Part shown: positions 2,327 through 33,036 of the stretch, one piece after another
Layout of the letters: each line of letters begins with the position of its first letter
Position numbering within the stretch: the stretch's first letter is position 1
From: Escherichia coli
GTDB taxonomy: Bacteria > Pseudomonadota > Gammaproteobacteria > Enterobacterales > Enterobacteriaceae
Strand: one strand, 5' to 3'
Assembly: GCF_965641715.1 (NCBI RefSeq)
Contig: NZ_OZ282453.1
Length of the DNA stretch: 64,000 nt
The notes under the pieces: generated by a model
Database searches by the model: none
The model's input: the letters and a program-made list of their open reading frames with translations, nothing else
Told to the model about the DNA's origin: nothing
Position numbers and translations under genes: made by a program

Positions 2327-4729
2327 TCAGTTGTCTGTTGCACCAACCATACCCGCAAATTTGAGCCATTGTCCTGATGGACTTCTGTTACCGCGGTAGT
2401 GATAAACAAGGATTGCATTTGTTACTCCACCATAGTCAGCTTTATGTGATGTGGTTAAGCGAATTGTATAATCACCATCGGGCAGGTTAAAAACTTCAAT
2501 TACAGTCCCTGCTAATTCAACCGCTCCAAACCCCGTTATATTGTTGATGCTGCCCGCATTGAATCCCATCATATCGCCAAAACCAATCCAGTACTTTTTG
2601 CTGAACGCACCATTTGACCTCAGGTGGTTAATAAATGTGGACATACTCATGCCCATTTCGCCGCCAGTTATGGCTGATGTACGTACCGAAATACTTGGCA
2701 GAGCACTACTCTTCACATAAGAGCTCAGAAGATTTATGACTTCTGTTTTCGTATAAGCATTAACGTTAGCCGCAGTCAACGTTATATCCGCAGTGCCATC
2801 AAACTTCACACCAGCAATTTCCCTTGCAGTCTGCAATTTCGTGGCACTGGCTGCGTTACCCGTTGTATCCTGATTGCCTGCCGCATTCACCCCCGGGATC
2901 AAATCTTTTACTGTATAAATCTGCGCCCAGTCCGACTCAAACCCATACTCATCCCGTGAGGAACGATAAAACAGCCCACCATTTTTATAATTGGCCCTGA
3001 TTTGCAACGTCCGGCAACTTCCACCCCCTGTATAGAAGTTTGCAACAATATAGCTGCTGCCTGTCCGGGTGACATTGTATGCACCAGATTTGGCATTCCA
3101 CGGAACGCCTCCCTCTGACTCTGCGTGCACACCGGACGATCCAAGAGCAAAAGCAGAGACATCTGCAGCGGACAGCCTGATGTCTGATTTCAATGCCTTA
3201 CCATTCACCTTACGACCAGATGGAACCCGGTCATTTGCATTATCATTCACCGCTTTCACCGCCATTGGTGTTGCCGCCAGCGATTCACTGTCACTGTCCG
3301 TGGCACTGCTGAGCTGTACCACCCCCTTTCTCGTCGTGCTCGCATCCTCTAGCGCCACGGCAGATGCAATATCCTCTGCCCGTTTTGCTGCTGTCTCGGC
3401 ACGCGTTGCTGCAGATTCCGACGTACTTTTGCTCTGAGCTGCCGCTGTCGCACTACCAGCTGCCTCTGTCGCCTTCGTGGATGCCGTCGTGGCACTGACC
3501 TTCGCCTCTGACGCCTGTCTTACCGCCTCATCTTTTGAAGCAGACGCCGATGATGCTGATGACGCCGCCGAACTGGCGGACGATGCGGCTGCCGTTTCTG
3601 AGGCTCCTGCGCGGGTTTCCGACGCTTTCGCATTCGTCTCAGATGTCTTCGCTGCGGAAGCAGAACTCGCAGCTGCAGTGGCCTGTTCAGTGGCTTCGCC
3701 AGCCTTCGTTGTGGCTGTTGAAGCGGACGATGCAGCGCTTTCTGCCGATTTTCCGGCGGCAGCGGCACTGGCTACAGCCTCCCCTGCCTTCACTGATGCC
3801 TCACGGGCCGATGATGCAGCCGCGGTTTCTGAGCCTGCCGCAGCTGAGGCACTCTGTCCCGCTGCCGTTTCAGAAGACCTGGCGTTCGTCTCGGACGTTT
3901 TTGCCGCTTTCGCGGAATTGCCTGCCGCTGTTGCCGAGGAAGCTGCGCTACTGGCGCTCGAGGATGCGTTCGTTTCTGATGATTTTGCCGCCTCTTTTGA
4001 AGCCGCCGCATCCCGGGCTGAGGTGGCAGCTTCTGACGCTTTCGTAGTCGCGGTGGATGCAGAAGTGGCTGCTGATTGTTGTGACGCTGCCGCATTCGTT
4101 TCTGACGTTTTCGCGGCACTGGCACTGGTAGCTGCCGCGCTTTTTGAGGACTCTGCAGCGGCAGCACTTTTTGATGCTTCAGTGGCCTTTGTTGATGCCG
4201 TTCCTGCGCTGGAAGTCGCTGACTGAGCCGACGACGCGGCCTGTCCGGCTGACGTGCTGGCTGCGCGTGCTGAGCCTGCAGCATCAGTCGCATGGGTTGC
4301 CGCCTCACGGGCTGATGTGCTGGCATCACTGGCTGACTTCTTCGCGGCTGCCGTGTTCTGTGCCACCACGGACGCGTTACGCGCCACCTCTTCCACCATC
4401 AGCTCAAAACGGCGCAGTGCCTCCGGACGGGCATCATCCTCCGTCATGGCACCGAGAAAATCATTCAGCGTACCGGGTCGGGAATCTTCATACACTGTGA
4501 TGGTCCCGGCATGTGACGGCGGGAATCCTTCCACCAACAGAATAACGCTGTACTGACCGTACTCAACGTCCATGCTGTAACGCCCGGCTTCATCCGGATT
4601 TTCTGAGGCCAGCGTGTTCACCACCACCGTGGTACTGTTACGTTTTGCTTTCAGCTGGATTGTGCAGTTCTGTACCGGTTTTCCTGTGCCGTCTTTCAGT
4701 ACACCTGAAATCTTTACTGCCATATTCAC
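2327..4729 (-). CDS. stf: Side tail fibre protein Stf
   Basis: N-terminus MAVKISGVLKDGTGKPVQNCTIQLKA... lambda Stf-like; long Ala/Ser/Thr-rich repetitive shaft; follows lom and J. Confidence 0.9.
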   Translation of the reverse strand: MNMAVKISGVLKDGTGKPVQNCTIQLKAKRNSTTVVVNTLASENPDEAGRYSMDVEYGQYSVILLVEGFPPSHAGTITVYEDSRPGTLNDFLGAMTEDDARPEALRRFELMVEEVARNASVVAQNTAAAKKSASDASTSAREAATHATDAAGSARAASTSAGQAASSAQSATSSAGTASTKATEASKSAAAAESSKSAAATSASAAKTSETNAAASQQSAATSASTATTKASEAATSARDAAASKEAAKSSETNASSSASSAASSATAAGNSAKAAKTSETNARSSETAAGQSASAAAGSETAAASSAREASVKAGEAVASAAAAGKSAESAASSASTATTKAGEATEQATAAASSASAAKTSETNAKASETRAGASETAAASSASSAASSASSASASKDEAVRQASEAKVSATTASTKATEAAGSATAAAQSKSTSESAATRAETAAKRAEDIASAVALEDASTTRKGVVQLSSATDSDSESLAATPMAVKAVNDNANDRVPSGRKVNGKALKSDIRLSAADVSAFALGSSGVHAESEGGVPWNAKSGAYNVTRTGSSYIVANFYTGGGSCRTLQIRANYKNGGLFYRSSRDEYGFESDWAQIYTVKDLIPGVNAAGNQDTTGNAASATKLQTAREIAGVKFDGTADITLTAANVNAYTKTEVINLLSSYVKSSALPSISVRTSAITGGEMGMSMSTFINHLRSNGAFSKKYWIGFGDMMGFNAGSINNITGFGAVELAGTVIEVFNLPDGDYTIRLTTSHKADYGGVTNAILVYHYRGNRSPSGQWLKFAGMVGATDN

Positions 4730-4735
4730 CCCACA

Positions 4736-4764
4736 AAAAAGCCCGCCTGAACCGGCGGGCTGTC
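4736..4764 (-). terminator. Rho-independent terminator downstream of lom
   Basis: Minus strand GCCCGCCGGTTCAGGCGGGC hairpin followed by TTTTTT. Confidence 0.6.
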
Positions 4765-4787
4765 ATAACACTGTGTTACCTGGCTAA

Positions 4788-5387
4788 TCAGAATTTATAA
4801 CCAACACCCACGATGAACCCGTCAGTGCGCCAGTCACCACTGCCGGAGCCTTCATAAGCGACATCAATGGCCACGGATTCGGTCGGGTTAAACTGCACGC
4901 CAGCTCCCCACGCCAGAGACGTGTTGCTGTGGCGACCGTCATCACTTCCGGTCAGCACATCGTGCTTTTTCCCCTTGTTGTCAGTTACGCGGAGATAATC
5001 CCCGGAGAAAGTCGACACACGGCTGTAAGCCACACCCGCCATCGCATACGCGCTGAACCATTCATTCACGCGCACAGACGGCCCCGCCATTACGCTGAAC
5101 CAGCGGTTACGAACGGAATCTTCATGCCAGCGGGTATCGCTGTAACGGGTAATCTGGCGATTCTTGTCTCCTGCATAGCTGAACGACGTCACCATCCCCA
5201 GTGTGTCCGTAAACTCATAACGGTATTTCACGTTAATCCCGTTCAGATCATCACTGCCGGGAACGTTCGTCCGGGCATGAAGATACCCCGCGCTCAGCGT
5301 GGACTGATGTTCAGACGCCCATGCAGGCGCACCGGATACGGCCAGACAAATGGCTGCGGACAAAATGGCGGCATAAAGTTTACGCAT
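4788..5387 (-). CDS. lom: Outer membrane protein Lom (Ail/Lom family)
   Basis: Signal peptide [24 protein letters not shown], beta-barrel-like sequence ending GYKF; position after J. Confidence 0.9.
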
Positions 5388-27617: not shown

Positions 27618-27863
27618 ACCTTTTTTCTCCTGTAAATAAAAAAGAGCCACCAGCGGCCCACCAAAAAACACCCCGTCAAAGACACCTGCACCCACAGATG
27701 CCTTTTGTGTGGTGTTATTCAGATTTGCGCAGTAAAGGCCAGAGAACAACCATCACCATCGCTACCAGCACGCCATCAGCCAGAACCGACATCAGCCGTC
27801 CGGCAAAATCTACTGCCACTACCAGAAACAGCAGGATGGCAGCCAGCACAAGACGTGCACTTT

Positions 27864-28289: not shown

Positions 28290-28462
28290 CGTGACGTTTC
28301 CTTTTAGTGGGAGAGCCTCGCCCCGGGATGAGCAGCCCACAGAGAAAGTCACACCGACCATCCCGTAAGCTCCCCCCCCCTGAAAGGCTCTGTGGTTTTT
28401 GATGTGCACCGGACGTGGCGCGGATATGAAAAAAGCTCGCAGTAGCGGGCCTGGCTACAGGC

Positions 28463-28488
28463 AAAAAAATACCCGTCCGGAGACGGGC
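28463..28488 (-). terminator. Rho-independent terminator (minus strand)
   Basis: Minus strand GCCCGTCTCCGGACGGG hairpin followed by TATTTTTTT. Confidence 0.5.
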
Positions 28489-28533
28489 TAACACATTCAA
28501 CATGTAAGAGTGGAACAGCGTTTATTTTAAGTA

Positions 28534-28620
28534 TGGTCGCCGCCAGAATGAGTCGTCAGATTGCAACGCAATTCTGGCAAATCGCAGGCACCAAAACAGG
28601 CAACGACTCATTCTGGCAAC
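28534..28620. repeat. 15-bp perfect inverted repeat (GCCAGAATGAGTCGT / ACGACTCATTCTGGC) with nested alternative pairing and direct repeats, followed by a T-run
   Basis: Read directly: arms at 28534-28548 and 28595-28609; ATTCTGGCA and GGCAACGAC each occur twice. Confidence 0.7.
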
Positions 28621-28773
28621 GACTTTTTTCCAATAACGCAACTTCATGAACAAAAAAAAGAACAGCACTGTATCCGCTATTGCAGAATGGAGAACAATAA
28701 AAAACCTGAACTATTATTCAACTCGGAAAACCGCCAGTGCTGTAAAAGTCCGTCAGAAATAAAACAATGAAGT

Positions 28774-28850
28774 TGTGGAGAACAGGAATCGAACCTGCAT
28801 CGCCAACCCAGAAGGCTGCGGTAATAGCTACTATACGATACCTGAATAAA
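28774..28850 (-). tRNA. tRNA-like sequence, probably a 3' fragment or pseudo-tRNA (canonical T-arm, no acceptor stem found)
   Basis: Minus strand GCAGGTTCGATTCCTGT T-arm preceded by CCTTCTGG; no complementary 5' acceptor strand could be found by eye. Confidence 0.3.
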
Positions 28851-29358
28851 GAGCAGGCCTCCGTAACCACAATAATGATACTGATAACAGACCTTCAATA
28901 TGATTGAACGGAAGCCTACAATGAACCGCAAGACAGCGGGGAACACCGCTGTGAACATAAACTTGCTGTCTTCCGGGTCGGGAGTAATATTACCGATAAT
29001 TCATATGACATCAAAAACTAATTAGTTTTCAGATTTAAAAATATGTATAAATCTGTATCAATTACATACAGTTTATGTTATTCCATCCAGAATTCTGATT
29101 TCGCACAGGAGATTGCGTAAAAACTAACACAAATATAAACGATTTGGGAACACACTGATTCAGTTGTCGCAATAAATAACAGGAAACACTCCGGGAATAA
29201 CAGATCGCAAGACTTACATCAGCAGGAGTTTTTGCAACATTTAACGTTAATTGTATCGTTGATAGAAAATCTATGACGCAATATGGTGAACTAACAGAGC
29301 CTGACGAATATCCCAATTACGCCGAGCTAATAGCGCTGCCAGCTAAACTTGCATGGAA

Positions 29359-29435
29359 TGGTCCGCCACCGGGTGCTCGAACCTCGCACAATCAACTTAG
29401 AAGGCTGATGCTCTATCCAGATGAGCTGGTGGCGG
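29359..29435 (-). tRNA. tRNA-Arg (anticodon UCU)-like, phage-encoded; T-stem imperfect
   Basis: Acceptor stem CCGCCAC/GTGGCGG, D-arm GCTC-ATCTGGATA-GAGC, anticodon loop CTTCTAA, 3' ACCA; two mismatches in the T-stem. Confidence 0.55.
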
Positions 29436-29437
29436 AA

Positions 29438-29513
29438 TGGTGGCCCTTGCTGGATTTGAACCAGCGACCTGGCGATTATGAGTCGCTCGCTCTAACCACT
29501 GAGCTAAAGGGCC
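29438..29513 (-). tRNA. ileZ: tRNA-Ile2 (anticodon CAU, ileX/ileZ-like), phage-encoded
   Basis: Minus strand GGCCCTTTAGCTCAGTGGTTAGAGCGAGCGACTCATAATCGCCAGGTCGCTGGTTCAAATCCAGCAAGGGCCACCA is near-identical to recalled E. coli tRNA-Ile2. Confidence 0.85.
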
Positions 29514-29553: not shown

Positions 29554-30612
29554 TCATCCGTTCTGACTGACTAAATCCTGTACTTCCCTGACCGTCTGCT
29601 CAAAACGCTCAGTCTCCAGCTCAACACCAATCACACGACGTCCCTGCGCCATCGCTGCTTTGACTGTCGAACCTGACCCCATGAAGAAATCTGCAACCAG
29701 GTCTCCCGGACGGCTGCTTGCGCTGATTATCTGCTGCAACATTTCTGCCGGTTTTTCGCACGGGTGCTTCCCGGGATAGTACTGCACCGGTTTATGCGTC
29801 CACACATCGGTGTACGGCACCTGCACAGTCACACCGAAATACCGCCGCAAATTTTTATATTCACTCAGCAGTTCCGTATACTGCCGGTTCAGTTCACTGT
29901 ATGTGCTGACCAGTTGGTAATGTGGCTTTTCCAGTTCTCCGCACTGGTGCTTCTCTTCTGCCACTCGGGCAAACAGTGCCTGTAATTTCAGATAATCGCT
30001 TTCATTCGGTAGCTGCCACTGACTGGCACTGAACCAGTGCGACACCATGTTTTTCTTTCCTGTAGCATCCACAATCTGTTTTGCCGTAATCCCCAGGGCC
30101 GCACGCGCATCACAAAAGTAAGAAATCAGCGGGGCCATCACATGCTGTTTCAGAGCCCTGCCCTTTGCCGCATAGCCATCATTTTTTAGCTGATATGGCC
30201 CCTGATAATGTCCGGCAAACAGAATGCGCTCTGTTGCCGGAAAATACGCCCGCAGGCTTTCCTTGTTGCACCCGTTCCAACGTCCGGACGGCTTCGCCCA
30301 GATGATATGGTTAAGCACGTTGAAACGTTCACGCATCATGATCTCAATATCAGATGCCAGGCGATGTCCACAGAACAGGTAAAGGCTTCCGGCAGGTTTC
30401 AACACCCGCCAGAACTGGGCCAGACAGTGGTCCAGCCACTTAAGGTAACCTTCGTCCCCTTTCCACTGATTGTCCCAGCCGTTGGGTTTCACCTTGAAGT
30501 ACGGCGGATCGGTAACAATCAGGTCAATGGAATCATCAGGCAGGGACTGAATAAAATGCAGGCAATCAGCGTTGATCAAATCAACACTGTTTATTTTTAC
30601 AGTATTTTTCAT
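29554..30612 (-). CDS. Orphan DNA N6-adenine methyltransferase (DPPY motif)
   Basis: IDLIVTDPPYF catalytic motif and C-terminal FFMGSGST AdoMet motif; no adjacent restriction enzyme gene. Confidence 0.85.
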   Translation of the reverse strand: MKNTVKINSVDLINADCLHFIQSLPDDSIDLIVTDPPYFKVKPNGWDNQWKGDEGYLKWLDHCLAQFWRVLKPAGSLYLFCGHRLASDIEIMMRERFNVLNHIIWAKPSGRWNGCNKESLRAYFPATERILFAGHYQGPYQLKNDGYAAKGRALKQHVMAPLISYFCDARAALGITAKQIVDATGKKNMVSHWFSASQWQLPNESDYLKLQALFARVAEEKHQCGELEKPHYQLVSTYSELNRQYTELLSEYKNLRRYFGVTVQVPYTDVWTHKPVQYYPGKHPCEKPAEMLQQIISASSRPGDLVADFFMGSGSTVKAAMAQGRRVIGVELETERFEQTVREVQDLVSQNG

Positions 30613-30762
30613 GGATCAGTAAGCGTAACTCTGGTAGGCTCACTCTGCTTTTGCGCTAAAGCAGTGGGCCGTGGTTCGCTTGTGACCAGTAAGCATGAGC
30701 GAATGGCTGGCAGGTGCTACCAACACCCACCAGCCGCCCATTTTCACAGCAGGAAACCGCCA

Positions 30763-30990
30763 TTACTGGCAGCGTCTGAATTTATTCCCGTACCCGCCGT
30801 TATCCTTCGCCAGACCCGCCAGAACTAACTGAGTCAGTATTAACTGGCACTGGGCTTCGCTTACTCCGGTAGTTCTCGTCATCATGCGTGGCGTTACCCA
30901 CTTGTCAGCAGGTAAGAAATGAAGGACTGCGGCGGCGGTTTCTGTCATATCTTGCTGTTTTAGCATGTCTTTTTCCCTTCTGGTTAACAT
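30763..30990 (-). CDS. Hypothetical small protein (possible winged-helix DNA-binding)
   Basis: 75-aa ORF between the rexA-like promoter region and the methyltransferase. Confidence 0.35.
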   Translation of the reverse strand: MLTRREKDMLKQQDMTETAAAVLHFLPADKWVTPRMMTRTTGVSEAQCQLILTQLVLAGLAKDNGGYGNKFRRCQ

Positions 30991-31244
30991 GACATACCAA
31001 TAACTCTTGTCTAAAAAGCCAGCAAGATAAAAAGTCAGTATTCACGACCACCAGCGTGTTTACTGTACTGCACCAGGTTTACAGGTACAAAAAACCGCTC
31101 GACGGCGGGTTTAAGCTGTGTGGCGAAGTAACCACTCTTAACAGATTAAGATAAAATTTGCGGACCGCGGTAATTTTTTTTGCTAAATTAAAGCCATATA
31201 AAAAATAAGATCCATAAGAAATTATTAGTATACTAAGGTTTAAC

Positions 31245-32186
31245 ATGGCTACTATTGCGCAATCAAAGAAACAAAAAAAACTTAAAATTGGTTTTTACAC
31301 CAGCAGTTCTGGGACTATCCGCAGCCATTCAGTTGCTAAGCAAGCAATTGAAAATCTGTATAATACTTGCGTAACCGTTACGAATAATCATTTTGATACC
31401 ATCTATAGAAATAAAAAGTTAAAAATAGCTTTTATAAATAAAGATACAAAAGCTAAATATTTCTTCGGCTACATGTCATGCTCACGAGAAGAGTATCTCC
31501 TTCCTTATATTGGTGATGAACACTGGAATGAGCACAACATACCACTAGATGATAAAAAATACATAGTCGAAAGAACCTATTTTTTATATTATTACGATAG
31601 TGATATTTTAATATTAACTCAAAATCATCTTGGGCCGAAAGAATCGGATTTAGCTTATCTGCTTTACAGCCAGAGTGGTAATCCTGGAAATAACTTTTCA
31701 TTCCAAGCCATCTGGAAAAAAGAGAGCGTCAAAGAGCTACTTGAAACAGGAAGTACTTTGAGAAGTTGTGATATTGTCCTGGCTGCTCCCAGGAACTTTG
31801 ATGCAACAAATTACCAGCTAAATAGTTCATTTTCTAAGGAACTGGTAAATATGATGGTAGGGCTGGGTGGAACACGTCTCAAGTTAAATCTAAGGGGACG
31901 TGCATCAGGGAGAGTAAAAGTCAAAGGTTATTTATCAGATCTCGTTAAGGATGGTATTAAAGAACTCCTTGAAAAAATGCCGGGAATTGTAAAAAAAGCG
32001 GCAGTAACACAGCCCAAAAATACCGTTGAACAAAGTCTTCTTGATCAGGTACTCATTTCAGAAAAAAACATATATACCGTTAATGGTTATGGCACTGATA
32101 GTGATGTTCTGCAAGCCATGATTTCTGCTAAAATTGATAACAATGAATACCTTAAGCAATACGATATCAGCAAAAAGAAGGTATAG
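31245..32186 (+). CDS. RexA-like protein (remote homolog of lambda RexA)
   Basis: 313 aa, AT-rich; local matches to recalled lambda RexA (KIGFYTSS vs KNGFYATY; LGPKESDLAYLL vs FGPTTSDLTDFL); 3 nt upstream of the rexB-like gene. Confidence 0.6.
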   Translation: MATIAQSKKQKKLKIGFYTSSSGTIRSHSVAKQAIENLYNTCVTVTNNHFDTIYRNKKLKIAFINKDTKAKYFFGYMSCSREEYLLPYIGDEHWNEHNIPLDDKKYIVERTYFLYYYDSDILILTQNHLGPKESDLAYLLYSQSGNPGNNFSFQAIWKKESVKELLETGSTLRSCDIVLAAPRNFDATNYQLNSSFSKELVNMMVGLGGTRLKLNLRGRASGRVKVKGYLSDLVKDGIKELLEKMPGIVKKAAVTQPKNTVEQSLLDQVLISEKNIYTVNGYGTDSDVLQAMISAKIDNNEYLKQYDISKKKV

Positions 32187-32189
32187 GAT

Positions 32190-32633
32190 ATGTTATTGAA
32201 ATACTTAAGAAACCTGATTGTAAGTGTTTTTTGCACCTTGTTCCTACTGAGGTATATCCCTCAGATGGGGCATGCTGACATACTTACAGCCTCCGGGGTT
32301 ATTTCAACTGTATCCGGTATTTTATTTGGTTTTATTTTAGCCACAATATCAATTTTTAGTGCTGCTAGCGAAAACTCAAATGGAATAATAAAAGCATTAA
32401 AAAACAACAACATACTTCAAGTTATTATTGTAAATCTATTAACCGCAGGTGCATCTTTAATTACGGCATGCGTTATTGCTTTGATAGCAATGTTTGCCAA
32501 TGAAAAGACATTGTTACATGGAGAAAAAATAGAATTTATTTTAATTATCGAATCTTTATCTCTTCTTATCATTTCAGTAATAACTTTTGCCTTTACATGG
32601 AGAAAAGTAAACTGGATACTCCCCCACATTTAA
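32190..32633 (+). CDS. RexB-like 4-TM membrane protein
   Basis: 147 aa; N-terminal LIVSVFCTLFLLRYIPQ vs recalled lambda RexB VIVSICYLLFRHYIPG; multi-pass TM, similar length (lambda RexB is 144 aa). Confidence 0.65.
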   Translation: MLLKYLRNLIVSVFCTLFLLRYIPQMGHADILTASGVISTVSGILFGFILATISIFSAASENSNGIIKALKNNNILQVIIVNLLTAGASLITACVIALIAMFANEKTLLHGEKIEFILIIESLSLLIISVITFAFTWRKVNWILPHI

Positions 32634-32656: not shown

Positions 32657-33019
32657 CTACTCCATTTCAAGTTTAACATCCAGCATTGAAAGGCATCCAT
32701 CAATAAACCCTTCAGCCATCTGTATCTCTATACGTATCAATTTCTCATCTTTTTTGCGAGCTCTTGCAAGCTTTCTTTTCGAGATGCCATACAGGTAATG
32801 GGCCACAATCAAAGAATGCTCGTACGGTTTTCGCTTTTTAAGAAGAGCAAGACAACCTTCAATAATTAATGCATCACTATCTGAACAAGCCTGACGTGTT
32901 TTGCTTGTATAGGGAAGAAGCCCTTTAAACCCAGCAGCTATAGGAGAATAGTCTACTCCTGAACTATCACTCGCCGCCCATGCTCCCCAACGATCCAGAA
33001 CCATTTGAATATCACGCAT
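32657..33019 (-). CDS. Antitermination protein Q (QuuD-like family)
   Basis: MRDIQMVLDRWGAWAA...AEGFIDGCLSMLDVKLEME resembles DLP12 QuuD; position after rusA/DUF968. Confidence 0.75.
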   Translation of the reverse strand: MRDIQMVLDRWGAWAASDSSGVDYSPIAAGFKGLLPYTSKTRQACSDSDALIIEGCLALLKKRKPYEHSLIVAHYLYGISKRKLARARKKDEKLIRIEIQMAEGFIDGCLSMLDVKLEME

Positions 33020-33036
33020 CAACTTTCTCCACAAAA

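What the first reader, a model, noticed from the sequence alone, without database searches (positions are those of the whole stretch)
29554..30612. Orphan N6-adenine DNA methyltransferase in the late region
DPPY-class methyltransferase with no adjacent restriction endonuclease, placed between Q and the tRNAs, so probably late-expressed. Orphan phage methyltransferases commonly protect phage DNA from host restriction or modulate gene expression. Target specificity cannot be read from the sequence.
Basis: partly seen in the sequence, partly recalled or inferred. Interest (0 to 1): 0.35.

Follow-up and report, generated by a model that had tools for sequence, protein, structure and literature searches.

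The report
Prophage copy of non-specific adenine methylase M.EcoGII
The gene is real and intact, but it is an ordinary copy (90% identical) of the well-studied prophage enzyme M.EcoGII, which methylates every adenine regardless of sequence, and relatives occur in about half of complete E. coli genomes.

Summary
The ORF at 29554-30612 (- strand, 352 aa) is confirmed. It is a beta-class N6_N4 DNA methyltransferase (Pfam E=2.5e-43) with DPPY at aa 35-38 and FxGxG at aa 310-314. No restriction enzyme lies nearby.

It is not an unknown orphan. It is 314/348 identical to M.EcoGII of E. coli O104:H4 and falls in the same 90% cluster. Its predicted target-recognition domain is 71/78 identical. The synteny matches the M.EcoGII locus: DUF968, Q, opposite-strand cassette, small winged-helix ORF, methylase, tRNAs.

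M.EcoGII methylates adenine in any context, is silent in lysogens, and slows growth when over-expressed. So specificity can be predicted from sequence, and the prediction is "none".

Late, Q-dependent expression is supported by architecture only. In 83 related loci the methylase lies downstream of a Q-allele-specific segment that ends in an intrinsic terminator. In the lambda-Q group that segment carries the lambda pR' signature.

The likely role is blanket protection of progeny phage DNA from restriction. That role is inferred and has not been shown in vivo.

Relatives occur in 2640 of 5426 complete E. coli genomes. Verdict: already known, low interest. Side observations are the conserved winged-helix partner ORF and a variable cargo slot between Q and pR'.

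The parts
29554..30612 (-). Methyltransferase ORF, 352 aa, M.EcoGII family (beta-class N6-adenine MTase)
   Evidence: ORF. Pfam PF01555 E=2.5e-43. 314/348 identical to M.EcoGII, P0137. Same 90% cluster as M.EcoGII.
30499..30510 (-). Catalytic motif IV, DPPY (aa 35-38)
   Evidence: Position found. Invariant in 34 homologues.
29902..30135 (-). Predicted target-recognition domain (aa 160-237, helical bundle with HTH)
   Evidence: Domain limits taken from the AlphaFold model of M.EcoGII in PMC11551740. 71/78 identical to the machine-read (OCR) M.EcoGII sequence. Helices at 147-173, 177-184, 190-193 and 204-223 in my own model (low confidence).
29671..29685 (-). AdoMet-binding motif I, FxGxG (FMGSG, aa 310-314)
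   Evidence: Position found. F309, F310, G312, S313 and G314 are invariant.
30613..30762 (-). 150-nt leader of the methylase with no Shine-Dalgarno before the ATG. It contains a weak terminator-like hairpin (30756-30773), which overlaps the small ORF stop, and a long conserved hairpin (30705-30735).
   Evidence: Fold: -67.4 kcal/mol, z=-2.9. The hairpin is kept in 30 distinct leader variants, with only G-U wobble changes. Most relatives have a canonical terminator, GCCTTCAGTCCTGAAGGCTTTTTTATTT, at the first hairpin.
30763..30966 (-). Small ORF, 67 aa (phrog_331), a stand-alone winged-helix protein that always precedes the methylase
   Evidence: PHROG E=1e-25. AF2 pLDDT 83 with a three-helix plus beta-wing topology. 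Foldseek TM up to 0.83 to winged-helix domains. Present in every related locus that reaches far enough upstream of the methylase to show it, and in Klebsiella and Salmonella prophages and phages SfV and mEp460.
31088..31106 (-). Intrinsic terminator-like hairpin plus T-run (CCGCCGTCGAGCGGTTTTTTG), a candidate tR'
   Evidence: Found by the terminator scan. At the same position every Q-type group has a different GC-rich hairpin followed by a T-run. Annotated as a rho-independent terminator in phage SfV.
31107..31190 (-). Q-allele-specific segment, inferred to carry the late promoter pR' and the Q-binding/pause site. The promoter was not located precisely.
   Evidence: It follows the Q stop codon directly in phage 1720a-02. 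It is shared only by loci with the same Q family. The lambda-Q group has TTGATT-N16-TAAATT...AACGATGGG here, the lambda pR' signature. The consensus promoter scan found nothing convincing in the window.
32657..33034 (-). Antiterminator Q (PF06530 family)
   Evidence: Pfam E=5.2e-52. RefSeq annotation: 'antiterminator Q family protein'.
29359..29513 (-). tRNA(CAT) (annotated tRNA-Ile in RefSeq) and tRNA-Arg(TCT), starting 41 nt after the methylase stop
   Evidence: ARAGORN. Rfam tRNA scores of 72.7 and 32.3 bits. RefSeq annotation. The same spacing is seen in all E. coli relatives with enough sequence.

Best explanation
The ORF encodes a prophage-borne, beta-class N6-adenine methyltransferase of the M.EcoGII/M.EcoGI family. 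By homology it should methylate adenine in any sequence context, with no recognition motif, using AdoMet. It probably acts as a homodimer. It is the second gene of the late operon. Transcription starts at the Q-specific late promoter segment just upstream of the small winged-helix ORF. It must read through an intrinsic terminator, plus a second weaker one in this allele, so the gene is off in the lysogen and comes on only when Q is made after induction. An ATG with no Shine-Dalgarno, behind a structured 150-nt leader, probably keeps translation low. Once made, the enzyme would heavily methylate replicating phage DNA before packaging. Progeny genomes would then be insensitive to many m6A-sensitive Type I, II and III restriction systems in the next host.

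Shown here: gene, motifs, family membership, synteny, and position downstream of terminators.

Taken from the literature on close homologues: non-specific activity, silence in lysogens, slower growth when over-expressed, and restriction-insensitive product DNA.

Inferred: Q dependence in this prophage, activity of this particular allele, and the anti-restriction role in vivo.
For: Identity. 314/348 aa identical to the M.EcoGII sequence, with no gaps. That sequence was recovered exactly as P0137, with O104:H4 accessions AFS73976.1 and AKE83937.1. Both proteins are in the same 90%-identity cluster. The TRD is 71/78 identical to the machine-read (OCR) M.EcoGII sequence. Catalytic and AdoMet motifs are intact.

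Robustness of the activity. Reconstructed ancestors that are only 60-83% identical to this protein all methylated DNA and RNA; largely non-sequence-specific methylation was reported for M.EcoGII and its variants from nanopore RNA data (PMC11551740).

Context. The M.EcoGII locus in O104:H4 has the same order: RusA, KilA-N, DUF968, Q(PF06530), two opposite-strand ORFs, 67-aa ORF, MTase, tRNAs. Its roughly 400 nt upstream of the MTase leader are about 99% identical to the window.

Late placement. In 83 loci the MTase lies after a Q-type-specific segment that ends in a terminator. The lambda-Q group shows the lambda pR' -10 and pause signature. In Klebsiella, Salmonella and Erwinia prophages and in phages SfV and mEp460 the homologue sits between Q (three different Q families) and the holin.

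Selection. 82 of 83 related ORFs are intact.

Literature. M.EcoGII methylates up to 99% of dA, which makes DNA insensitive to multiple restriction enzymes. It is not expressed in the native strain and slows growth when over-expressed (PMC5778455). The M.EcoGI homologue in ST131 is transcriptionally inactive by RT-PCR (PMC4659465). [quoted passage not shown]
Against: No activity data exist for this allele. It carries residues not seen in 33 diverse homologues at positions that are otherwise at least 85% conserved: D55G, P142L, R167C, A181V, H232Y, L323Q and A327V. It also carries E134G and R224C, which are rare among close relatives. R167C, A181V, R224C and H232Y lie in the predicted TRD and could weaken or alter DNA binding.

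The late promoter could not be pinpointed in the window by consensus scanning.

I found no paper showing that virion DNA of such phages is hypermethylated, or that the gene gives anti-restriction protection in vivo.

Heavily m6A-modified DNA would be a target for m6A-dependent Type IV enzymes, so protection is not universal. This last point rests on established knowledge and was not tested here.
Confidence: 0.8

Rival explanations
1. It is a conventional sequence-specific orphan methyltransferase that recognises a defined motif, as the database label 'site-specific DNA-methyltransferase' implies.
For: Sources name cluster members 'site-specific DNA-methyltransferase'. The nearest solved structures are sequence-specific enzymes: M.BceJIV, M.RsrI, CcrM and M.MboIIA. 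Several allele-specific substitutions fall in the TRD.
Against: The label is generic automatic annotation. The solved structures match only the catalytic core, at about 20% identity. The protein is 90% identical to M.EcoGII overall and 91% identical in the TRD. M.EcoGI is also reported non-specific, and ancestors as low as 60% identical to this protein all methylated DNA and RNA; largely non-sequence-specific methylation was reported for M.EcoGII and its variants from nanopore RNA data (PMC5778455, PMC4659465, PMC11551740).
Confidence: 0.05
2. This allele is an attenuated or inactive copy that is decaying in a resident prophage.
For: It has seven residues unseen in diverse homologues at conserved positions, including the loss of two arginines in the TRD (R167C, R224C) and H232Y. 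One 99.7%-identical relative carries a W105* nonsense mutation (L005). A toxic gene is an obvious target for inactivation.
Against: The ORF is full length with all catalytic and AdoMet-binding residues intact. The exact protein sequence is found on 236 contigs, so it is a circulating allele and not a one-off lesion. 82 of 83 related copies are intact. The prophage appears complete, from integrase to tail fibre.
Confidence: 0.1
3. Its main natural substrate is not phage DNA. It might be RNA (phage tRNAs or late mRNAs), or the host chromosome as a host-takeover device.
For: M.EcoGII methylates RNA and DNA:RNA hybrids in vitro (PMC5778455). In all E. coli relatives a tRNA gene starts exactly 41 nt after the methylase stop. 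Over-expression slows host growth.
Against: The tRNAs are absent next to the homologue in Klebsiella, Salmonella and Erwinia prophages, and none is annotated next to it in phages SfV and mEp460, so the linkage is not a family feature. DNA activity exceeds RNA activity, and m6A in bacterial mRNA has no known role (PMC11551740 discussion).
Confidence: 0.04
4. It acts as an epigenetic regulator of host or prophage genes in the lysogen.
For: Some orphan MTases (Dam, CcrM) and the Stx-phage M.EcoGIII have strong regulatory effects (PMC4659465).
Against: The gene sits behind terminators downstream of Q. Homologues leave no methylation signal in lysogens and are untranscribed by RT-PCR. Indiscriminate methylation carries no positional information.
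Confidence: 0.02

Closest known systems
M.EcoGII (and its 95%-identical paralogue M.EcoGI) of E. coli O104:H4 C227-11; Murray et al. 2018, PMC5778455
   Same: 90% aa identity over 348 residues with no gaps, and the same 90% cluster. Same beta-class motif order. TRD 91% identical to the machine-read M.EcoGII sequence. Same lambdoid prophage position: DUF968, Q(PF06530), opposite-strand cassette, 67-aa winged-helix ORF, MTase, tRNAs. The upstream 400 nt are about 99% identical.
   Different: 352 aa against 349 aa, because the C-terminal tail is LVSQNG instead of LIV. 34 substitutions, including several at otherwise conserved positions (D55G, E134G, P142L, R167C, R224C, H232Y, L323Q, A327V). Two tRNAs instead of three, with argN(TCG) missing. 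A different cargo cassette between Q and pR'. Activity of this allele has not been tested.
'DNA methylase' of Stx2 phages (Stx2a_1447, WGPS2, 1720a-02, Stx2c phages) and of phages SfV (orf48), mEp460, cdtI and phiP27
   Same: 88% nucleotide and about 89-90% aa identity to the Stx-phage copies. Same winged-helix-ORF, MTase, tRNA module after Q. Phage 1720a-02 is named as an M.EcoGII homologue in PMC5778455.
   Different: In Stx phages stx2AB follows the tRNAs. Here that slot holds about 950 bp of unannotated low-GC DNA with no phage match. SfV and mEp460 have no tRNAs annotated there, and the holin follows directly.
Other promiscuous mobile-element adenine MTases: M.EcoGIX/M.BceJIII (plasmid, single-strand specific), M.HaeV/Hia5-type (alpha class), and phage Mu Mom
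   Same: The same strategy of relaxed-specificity modification, expressed only when DNA is about to leave or enter a cell, and harmful if expressed constitutively (PMC12707154, PMC7736820).
   Different: Unrelated or only distantly related proteins. M.HaeV-type enzymes have the reversed (alpha) motif order (PMC5778455). Mom makes a different adduct. M.EcoGIX acts on single strands during plasmid establishment. None of these sequences was compared here.
Solved beta-class MTases: M.BceJIV (8URK), M.RsrI (1EG2), CcrM (6PBD), M.MboIIA (1G60), M1.HpyAVI (5HFJ)
   Same: Rossmann catalytic core with DPPY and FxGxG. phmmer E=1e-25 to 1e-13, and Foldseek E about 1e-12.
   Different: Only the two core segments align (aa 9-133 and aa 270-343), at about 20% identity. 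The central TRD has no solved relative. All of these enzymes are sequence-specific.

Membership tests
M.EcoGII/M.EcoGI family (non-specific beta-class adenine MTases of lambdoid prophages) | Close full-length sequence similarity to M.EcoGII | tested here: met
   314/348 identical with no gaps. Same 90% cluster as the exact M.EcoGII sequence P0137.
M.EcoGII/M.EcoGI family (non-specific beta-class adenine MTases of lambdoid prophages) | Beta-class order: N-terminal DPPY, central TRD, C-terminal FxGxG, with no extra domains | tested here: met
   DPPY at aa 35, FMGSG at aa 310. A single PF01555 match spans aa 29-340.
M.EcoGII/M.EcoGI family (non-specific beta-class adenine MTases of lambdoid prophages) | Conserved M.EcoGII-type target-recognition domain (aa 160-237) | tested here: met
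   71/78 identical to the machine-read (OCR) M.EcoGII sequence. Caveat: R167C, A181V, R224C and H232Y are unusual.
M.EcoGII/M.EcoGI family (non-specific beta-class adenine MTases of lambdoid prophages) | Location in a lambdoid prophage downstream of Q | tested here: met
   Same synteny as the O104:H4 M.EcoGII locus.
M.EcoGII/M.EcoGI family (non-specific beta-class adenine MTases of lambdoid prophages) | Methylation of adenine in any sequence context (DNA, ssDNA, RNA) | not testable with these tools
   Needs expression plus methylome or LC-MS. Inferred from homologues only (PMC5778455, PMC11551740).
M.EcoGII/M.EcoGI family (non-specific beta-class adenine MTases of lambdoid prophages) | Silent in the lysogen and deleterious when expressed | not testable with these tools
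   The architecture is consistent: terminators lie between the late-promoter segment and the gene, and there is no Shine-Dalgarno. No expression data are available for this strain.
Pfam PF01555 N6_N4_Mtase | Score above the gathering threshold | tested here: met
   149 bits against a 26.7-bit cut-off.
Type II restriction-modification system (MTase with cognate endonuclease) | A restriction endonuclease gene adjacent to the MTase | tested here: not met
   The neighbours are a winged-helix ORF, tRNAs, a DUF6731 plus membrane-protein pair, and Q. None gave an REase hit in Pfam, PADLOC or PHROGs. The DUF968 protein, two genes upstream of Q, has only a sub-threshold HNH-like hit (25.2 bits against a 26.6-bit cut-off). 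It is a common lambdoid gene that also accompanies M.EcoGII.
Dam-type (alpha-class, GATC) phage methyltransferases | FxGxG N-terminal to DPPY, and a PF02086 (D12 class) match | tested here: not met
   The motif order is the reverse. PF02086 is not among the Pfam hits.

The most novel reading that the evidence does not exclude
The small winged-helix protein that precedes this methylase in every enterobacterial relative examined that has enough upstream sequence (no such gene was called in the Erwinia locus) may be a functional partner and not a bystander. Its recognition helix is invariant from E. coli to Klebsiella and Salmonella. It might be a controller that times expression, or a factor that confines an otherwise indiscriminate methylase to phage DNA. 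Together with the structured leader that lacks a Shine-Dalgarno, this would make the locus a two-component 'hypermethylate only what is exported' module. M.EcoGII has so far been studied only as a lone enzyme.
Probability: 0.1. Interest if true: 0.5.

Novelty: already known. Interest (0 to 1): 0.13.

Why it matters
For the genome scan this is a routine feature, a copy of a characterised and commercially used enzyme family that is present in roughly half of complete E. coli genomes. Two practical points follow. First, the automatic label 'site-specific DNA-methyltransferase' is misleading for this family. Second, a lysogen-versus-cured methylome would probably miss its activity, because the gene is expected to be on only after induction. 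What remains open for the whole family, and is not special to this locus, is the in vivo biology: whether virion DNA is really hypermethylated, how much restriction evasion that buys, how the host survives it during the late phase, and what the conserved winged-helix neighbour does.

Tried and rejected
1. My first hand-corrected version of the machine-read M.EcoGII sequence from the SUPREM supplement was not in the protein collection. A locus translation (L033) showed the correct residues, and the corrected sequence was then found exactly.

2. The AlphaFold2 model of the methylase was mediocre (pLDDT 65, pTM 0.55). I used it only to confirm the beta-class core by Foldseek and drew no conclusion about the TRD from it.

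3. Consensus promoter scanning gave no convincing sigma-70 site for pR' in the window. Counts equalled the shuffled expectation. I tried several -35/-10 registers by eye and none convinced me. The promoter is therefore placed only by comparative modularity.

4. Rfam found nothing in the leader or the post-Q segment.

5. Literature searches found no paper on induction-dependent hypermethylation or on an in vivo anti-restriction role for this family.

6. The idea of functional coupling between the methylase and the adjacent tRNAs was rejected, because the tRNAs are absent next to homologues in other genera and none is annotated there in SfV and mEp460.

7. The small ORF is not homologous to lambda orf-64, which occupies the analogous post-pR' position.

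8. Its best structural match is the Z-alpha domain (TM 0.83). I treat this as generic winged-helix similarity, given 16% identity and E>1e-3. By eye the Z-alpha signature residues are not present, but this was not tested formally.

9. PADLOC gave no defence-system assignment for the DUF6731 plus membrane-protein cassette.

10. The 949-bp stretch downstream of the tRNAs has no megablast match among phages.
Full report
OBSERVATION. The window holds an ATG-to-TGA ORF of 352 aa at 29554-30612 on the - strand.

- It matches Pfam PF01555 (N6_N4_Mtase) across aa 29-340 with E=2.5e-43, 149 bits against a 26.7-bit cut-off.
- DPPY lies at aa 35-38 and FMGSG (FxGxG) at aa 310-314. This is the beta-class order: catalytic motif, then target-recognition domain, then AdoMet motif.
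- On the same strand the antiterminator Q (32657-33034, PF06530 E=5e-52) lies upstream. Two tRNA genes lie immediately downstream: tRNA(CAT) at 29438-29513, annotated tRNA-Ile in RefSeq, and tRNA-Arg(TCT) at 29359-29435.
- None of the neighbours gave a restriction-endonuclease match in Pfam, PADLOC or PHROGs.

The window is 100% identical to a complete-looking lambdoid prophage of porcine E. coli EC416, integrated beside yjjG.

WHAT IT IS. The gene is 88% identical in DNA to the 'DNA methylase' of many Stx2 phages, including phage 1720a-02. Relatives are present in 2640 of 5426 complete E. coli genomes, with up to 8 copies per genome.

Murray et al. [quoted passage not shown] That paper names the 1720a-02 gene as a close homologue and calls the family very large.

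I took the M.EcoGII sequence (GenBank EGT69837.1) from Supplementary Table S1 of PMC11551740. I corrected its machine-reading errors with the help of a locus translation. The corrected sequence was found exactly in the protein collection as P0137, with O104:H4 accessions AFS73976.1 and AKE83937.1.

- The window protein is 314/348 identical to it, with no gaps.
- Both proteins sit in the same 90%-identity cluster.
- Against the machine-read sequence, the predicted target-recognition domain (aa 160-237, limits from PMC11551740) is 71/78 identical.
- Reconstructed ancestors that are only 60-83% identical to the window protein all methylated DNA and RNA; largely non-sequence-specific methylation was reported for M.EcoGII and its variants from nanopore RNA data. 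The non-specific phenotype is therefore robust across much more divergence than separates this allele from M.EcoGII.

The solved structures that match are M.BceJIV, M.RsrI, CcrM, M.MboIIA and M1.HpyAVI. They align only with the two halves of the catalytic core, at about 20% identity. My own AlphaFold model was too weak (pLDDT 65) to add anything about the central domain.

CONTEXT AND EXPRESSION. The genomic locus of M.EcoGII itself (L085, O104:H4) has the same order as the window: RusA, KilA-N, DUF968, Q(PF06530), two opposite-strand ORFs, a 67-aa ORF, the methylase, then tRNAs. The roughly 400 nt upstream of the methylase leader are about 99% identical between the two loci. The methylase coding sequences are only about 88% identical, so the region is mosaic.

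I collected 80 related loci from viral contigs, which with three annotated ones makes 83. In these loci:

- The order small ORF, methylase, then a tRNA(CAT) starting 41 nt after the stop codon is seen in every locus with enough flanking sequence.
- 82 of 83 methylase ORFs are intact. The exception is W105* in L005.

Aligning the DNA upstream of the small ORF shows a modular pattern.

- The segment just downstream of Q differs between Q families.
- Each version ends in a GC-rich hairpin plus T-run, with different stem sequences.
- After that hairpin all loci share the same roughly 120 nt leading into the small ORF.

In the group whose upstream gene is a lambda-Q homologue (E about 1e-34), this segment reads TTGATT-N16-TAAATTTGCCCTAACGATGGG. 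Phage lambda itself has TTGACT-N17-TAAATTTGACTCAACGATGGG at pR' (sequence read). That this is the pR' -10 element and the pause-inducing element is established knowledge.

I therefore place pR', the Q-loading site and a tR'-type terminator in that segment. In the window the segment is about 31107-31190 and the hairpin is at 31088-31106. In phage 1720a-02 the same segment directly follows the Q stop codon. In the window, and in Stx2a_1447, a cassette has been inserted between Q and this segment.

Most relatives have a second, canonical terminator straight after the small ORF. The window allele has a weaker hairpin there.

The methylase ATG has no Shine-Dalgarno. It sits behind a 150-nt leader containing a long hairpin (z=-2.9) that is preserved in 30 leader variants with only wobble changes.

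In Klebsiella, Salmonella and Erwinia prophages, and in the isolated phages SfV and mEp460, the homologue again lies between Q and the holin. Three different Pfam Q families are involved. SfV has an annotated terminator after Q.

All this supports Q-dependent late transcription, but by architecture only. I could not locate the promoter itself in this Q family.

MECHANISM.

Shown here: an intact M.EcoGII-family gene downstream of the late-promoter module and at least one terminator.

From the literature on 90-99% identical homologues:

- Up to 99% of dA can be methylated, in any context. ssDNA and RNA are also substrates.
- The modified DNA is insensitive to multiple restriction enzymes.
- The gene is not expressed in the native lysogen and slows growth when over-expressed.
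- The ST131 homologue (99% identical to M.EcoGI) was predicted inactive from RT-PCR, and in the O111 STEC isolates no methylated motifs beyond GATC and CTGCAG were detected in 95JB1, so the remaining putative MTases were judged inactive.

Inferred: after induction, Q-modified RNA polymerase reads through the terminators. A small amount of enzyme then hypermethylates replicating phage DNA before packaging. This gives progeny broad protection against m6A-sensitive Type I, II and III restriction.

I put about 0.97 on family membership. I put about 0.8 on non-specific activity of this allele, about 0.8 on late Q-dependent expression, and about 0.6 on anti-restriction as the selected function.

CAVEATS AND RIVALS. 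The window allele carries residues not seen in 33 diverse homologues at positions that are otherwise at least 85% conserved: D55G, P142L, R167C, A181V, H232Y, L323Q and A327V. It also carries E134G and R224C, which are rare among close relatives. Four of these lie in the predicted TRD.

- Attenuated or altered enzyme: possible, about 0.1. However, the exact protein occurs on 236 contigs and all catalytic residues are intact.
- Site-specific enzyme: about 0.05. It rests only on generic annotation.
- RNA or tRNA substrate: about 0.04. It is weakened because the tRNAs are missing next to homologues in other genera and none is annotated there in SfV and mEp460.
- Regulation in the lysogen: about 0.02. 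It conflicts with the silence reported for homologues.

COMPARISON AND NOVELTY. This is a member of the M.EcoGII/M.EcoGI family. The sequence, motif-order, TRD and synteny criteria were all tested and met. The defining activity and its silence in lysogens cannot be tested with these tools. It is not part of a restriction-modification pair and it is not a Dam-type enzyme.

Its statement that specificity cannot be read from the sequence is not right, because homology predicts 'no specificity'. Its proposed refutation, lysogen versus cured methylome, would probably be uninformative, because the gene is expected to be off.

Novelty: already known. Interest: low.

SIDE OBSERVATIONS.

(a) The 67-aa ORF before the methylase is a stand-alone winged-helix protein.

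- It belongs to phrog_331.
- AF2 gives pLDDT 83 with a three-helix plus wing topology.
- Foldseek gives TM up to 0.83 to winged-helix domains, though with E>1e-3.
- Pfam gives only sub-threshold wHTH hits.
- Its recognition helix is invariant from E. coli to Klebsiella and Salmonella.
- It accompanies the methylase in SfV, mEp460 and other phages.
- Its function is unknown. This is the basis of the novel reading I cannot exclude.

(b) The slot between Q and the pR' segment carries different opposite-strand cargo in different prophages.

- The window has a DUF6731 protein plus a membrane protein.
- O104:H4 and Stx2a_1447 have unknown pairs.
- A Salmonella prophage has HicAB.
- An Erwinia prophage has an AAA_13 ATPase.

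(c) About 950 bp of unannotated low-GC DNA with no phage match (28410-29358) occupies the position where stx2 sits in Stx phages.

Noticed in passing
window 30763-30966 (- strand); also L001 4647-4844, L085 4646-4849, L088 3629-3850, L089 3661-3852, L091 2501-2695: A 63-73 aa stand-alone winged-helix protein (phrog_331) precedes the methylase. It is found in every related E. coli locus that reaches far enough upstream to show it, in Klebsiella and Salmonella prophages, and in phages SfV (orf47) and mEp460. Its recognition helix CQLILTQLVxAGL is invariant while the rest diverges to about 50% identity. Function unknown; it may be a controller or partner of the promiscuous methylase.
   Followed up: partly
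window 31245-32633 (+ strand): A low-GC (31-36%) two-gene cassette on the strand opposite the late genes. It encodes a DUF6731 protein (313 aa) and a 147-aa multi-pass membrane protein, and has its own bidirectional terminator next to the Q stop. It is inserted between Q and the late-promoter segment. It has no PADLOC match. The same slot holds other cargo elsewhere: unknown pairs in O104:H4 and Stx2a_1447, HicAB in Salmonella L089, and an AAA_13 ATPase in Erwinia L090. It looks like a moron or defence hot spot.
   Followed up: partly
window 28410-29358: About 950 bp with 38-45% GC between the tRNAs and the TerB-family gene. RefSeq annotates no gene here, no convincing ORF is present, and there is no megablast match in the phage collection. 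It occupies the position where stx2AB lies in Stx phages. The only Rfam hit is a sub-threshold PhrS match (E=0.059).
   Followed up: partly
window 30613-30762 (- strand): The methylase has a 150-nt leader with a long conserved hairpin (30705-30735; variants keep pairing through G-U wobble) and no Shine-Dalgarno before the ATG. Most relatives also have a canonical intrinsic terminator straight after the small ORF, while the window allele has a weaker one (30756-30773). This may be translational or termination control of a toxic gene.
   Followed up: partly
window 29554-30612 (protein positions 55, 134, 142, 167, 181, 224, 232, 323, 327): This allele carries substitutions at otherwise strongly conserved positions: D55G, E134G, P142L, R167C, A181V, R224C, H232Y, L323Q and A327V. 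Even so, the exact protein is found on 236 contigs. The effect on activity is unknown.
   Followed up: partly
window 30640-31130 compared with L085 4480-5000: Mosaicism. The post-Q segment and the small ORF are about 99% identical to the O104:H4 M.EcoGII locus, but identity drops to about 88% within the leader and the methylase coding sequence. This implies a recombination junction in the leader.
   Followed up: no
window 27767-27858 (- strand): ARAGORN calls a 92-nt tRNA-Arg(TCT) here. Rfam's tRNA model does not match, and the stretch overlaps an annotated DUF3927 CDS, so this is probably a false positive.
   Followed up: yes
window 29359-29513 compared with L001 6094-6345 and L085 6100-6351: The window has only two of the three tRNAs usual in Stx-type phages. 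It has ileZ-like (CAT) and argO-like (TCT), and the argN-like tRNA-Arg(TCG) is missing.
   Followed up: no
L005 (IMGVR_UViG_2565956619_000010) 4001-5056: A 99.7%-identical copy of the window methylase carries a premature stop at W105. It is the only disrupted copy among 83 related loci.
   Followed up: no
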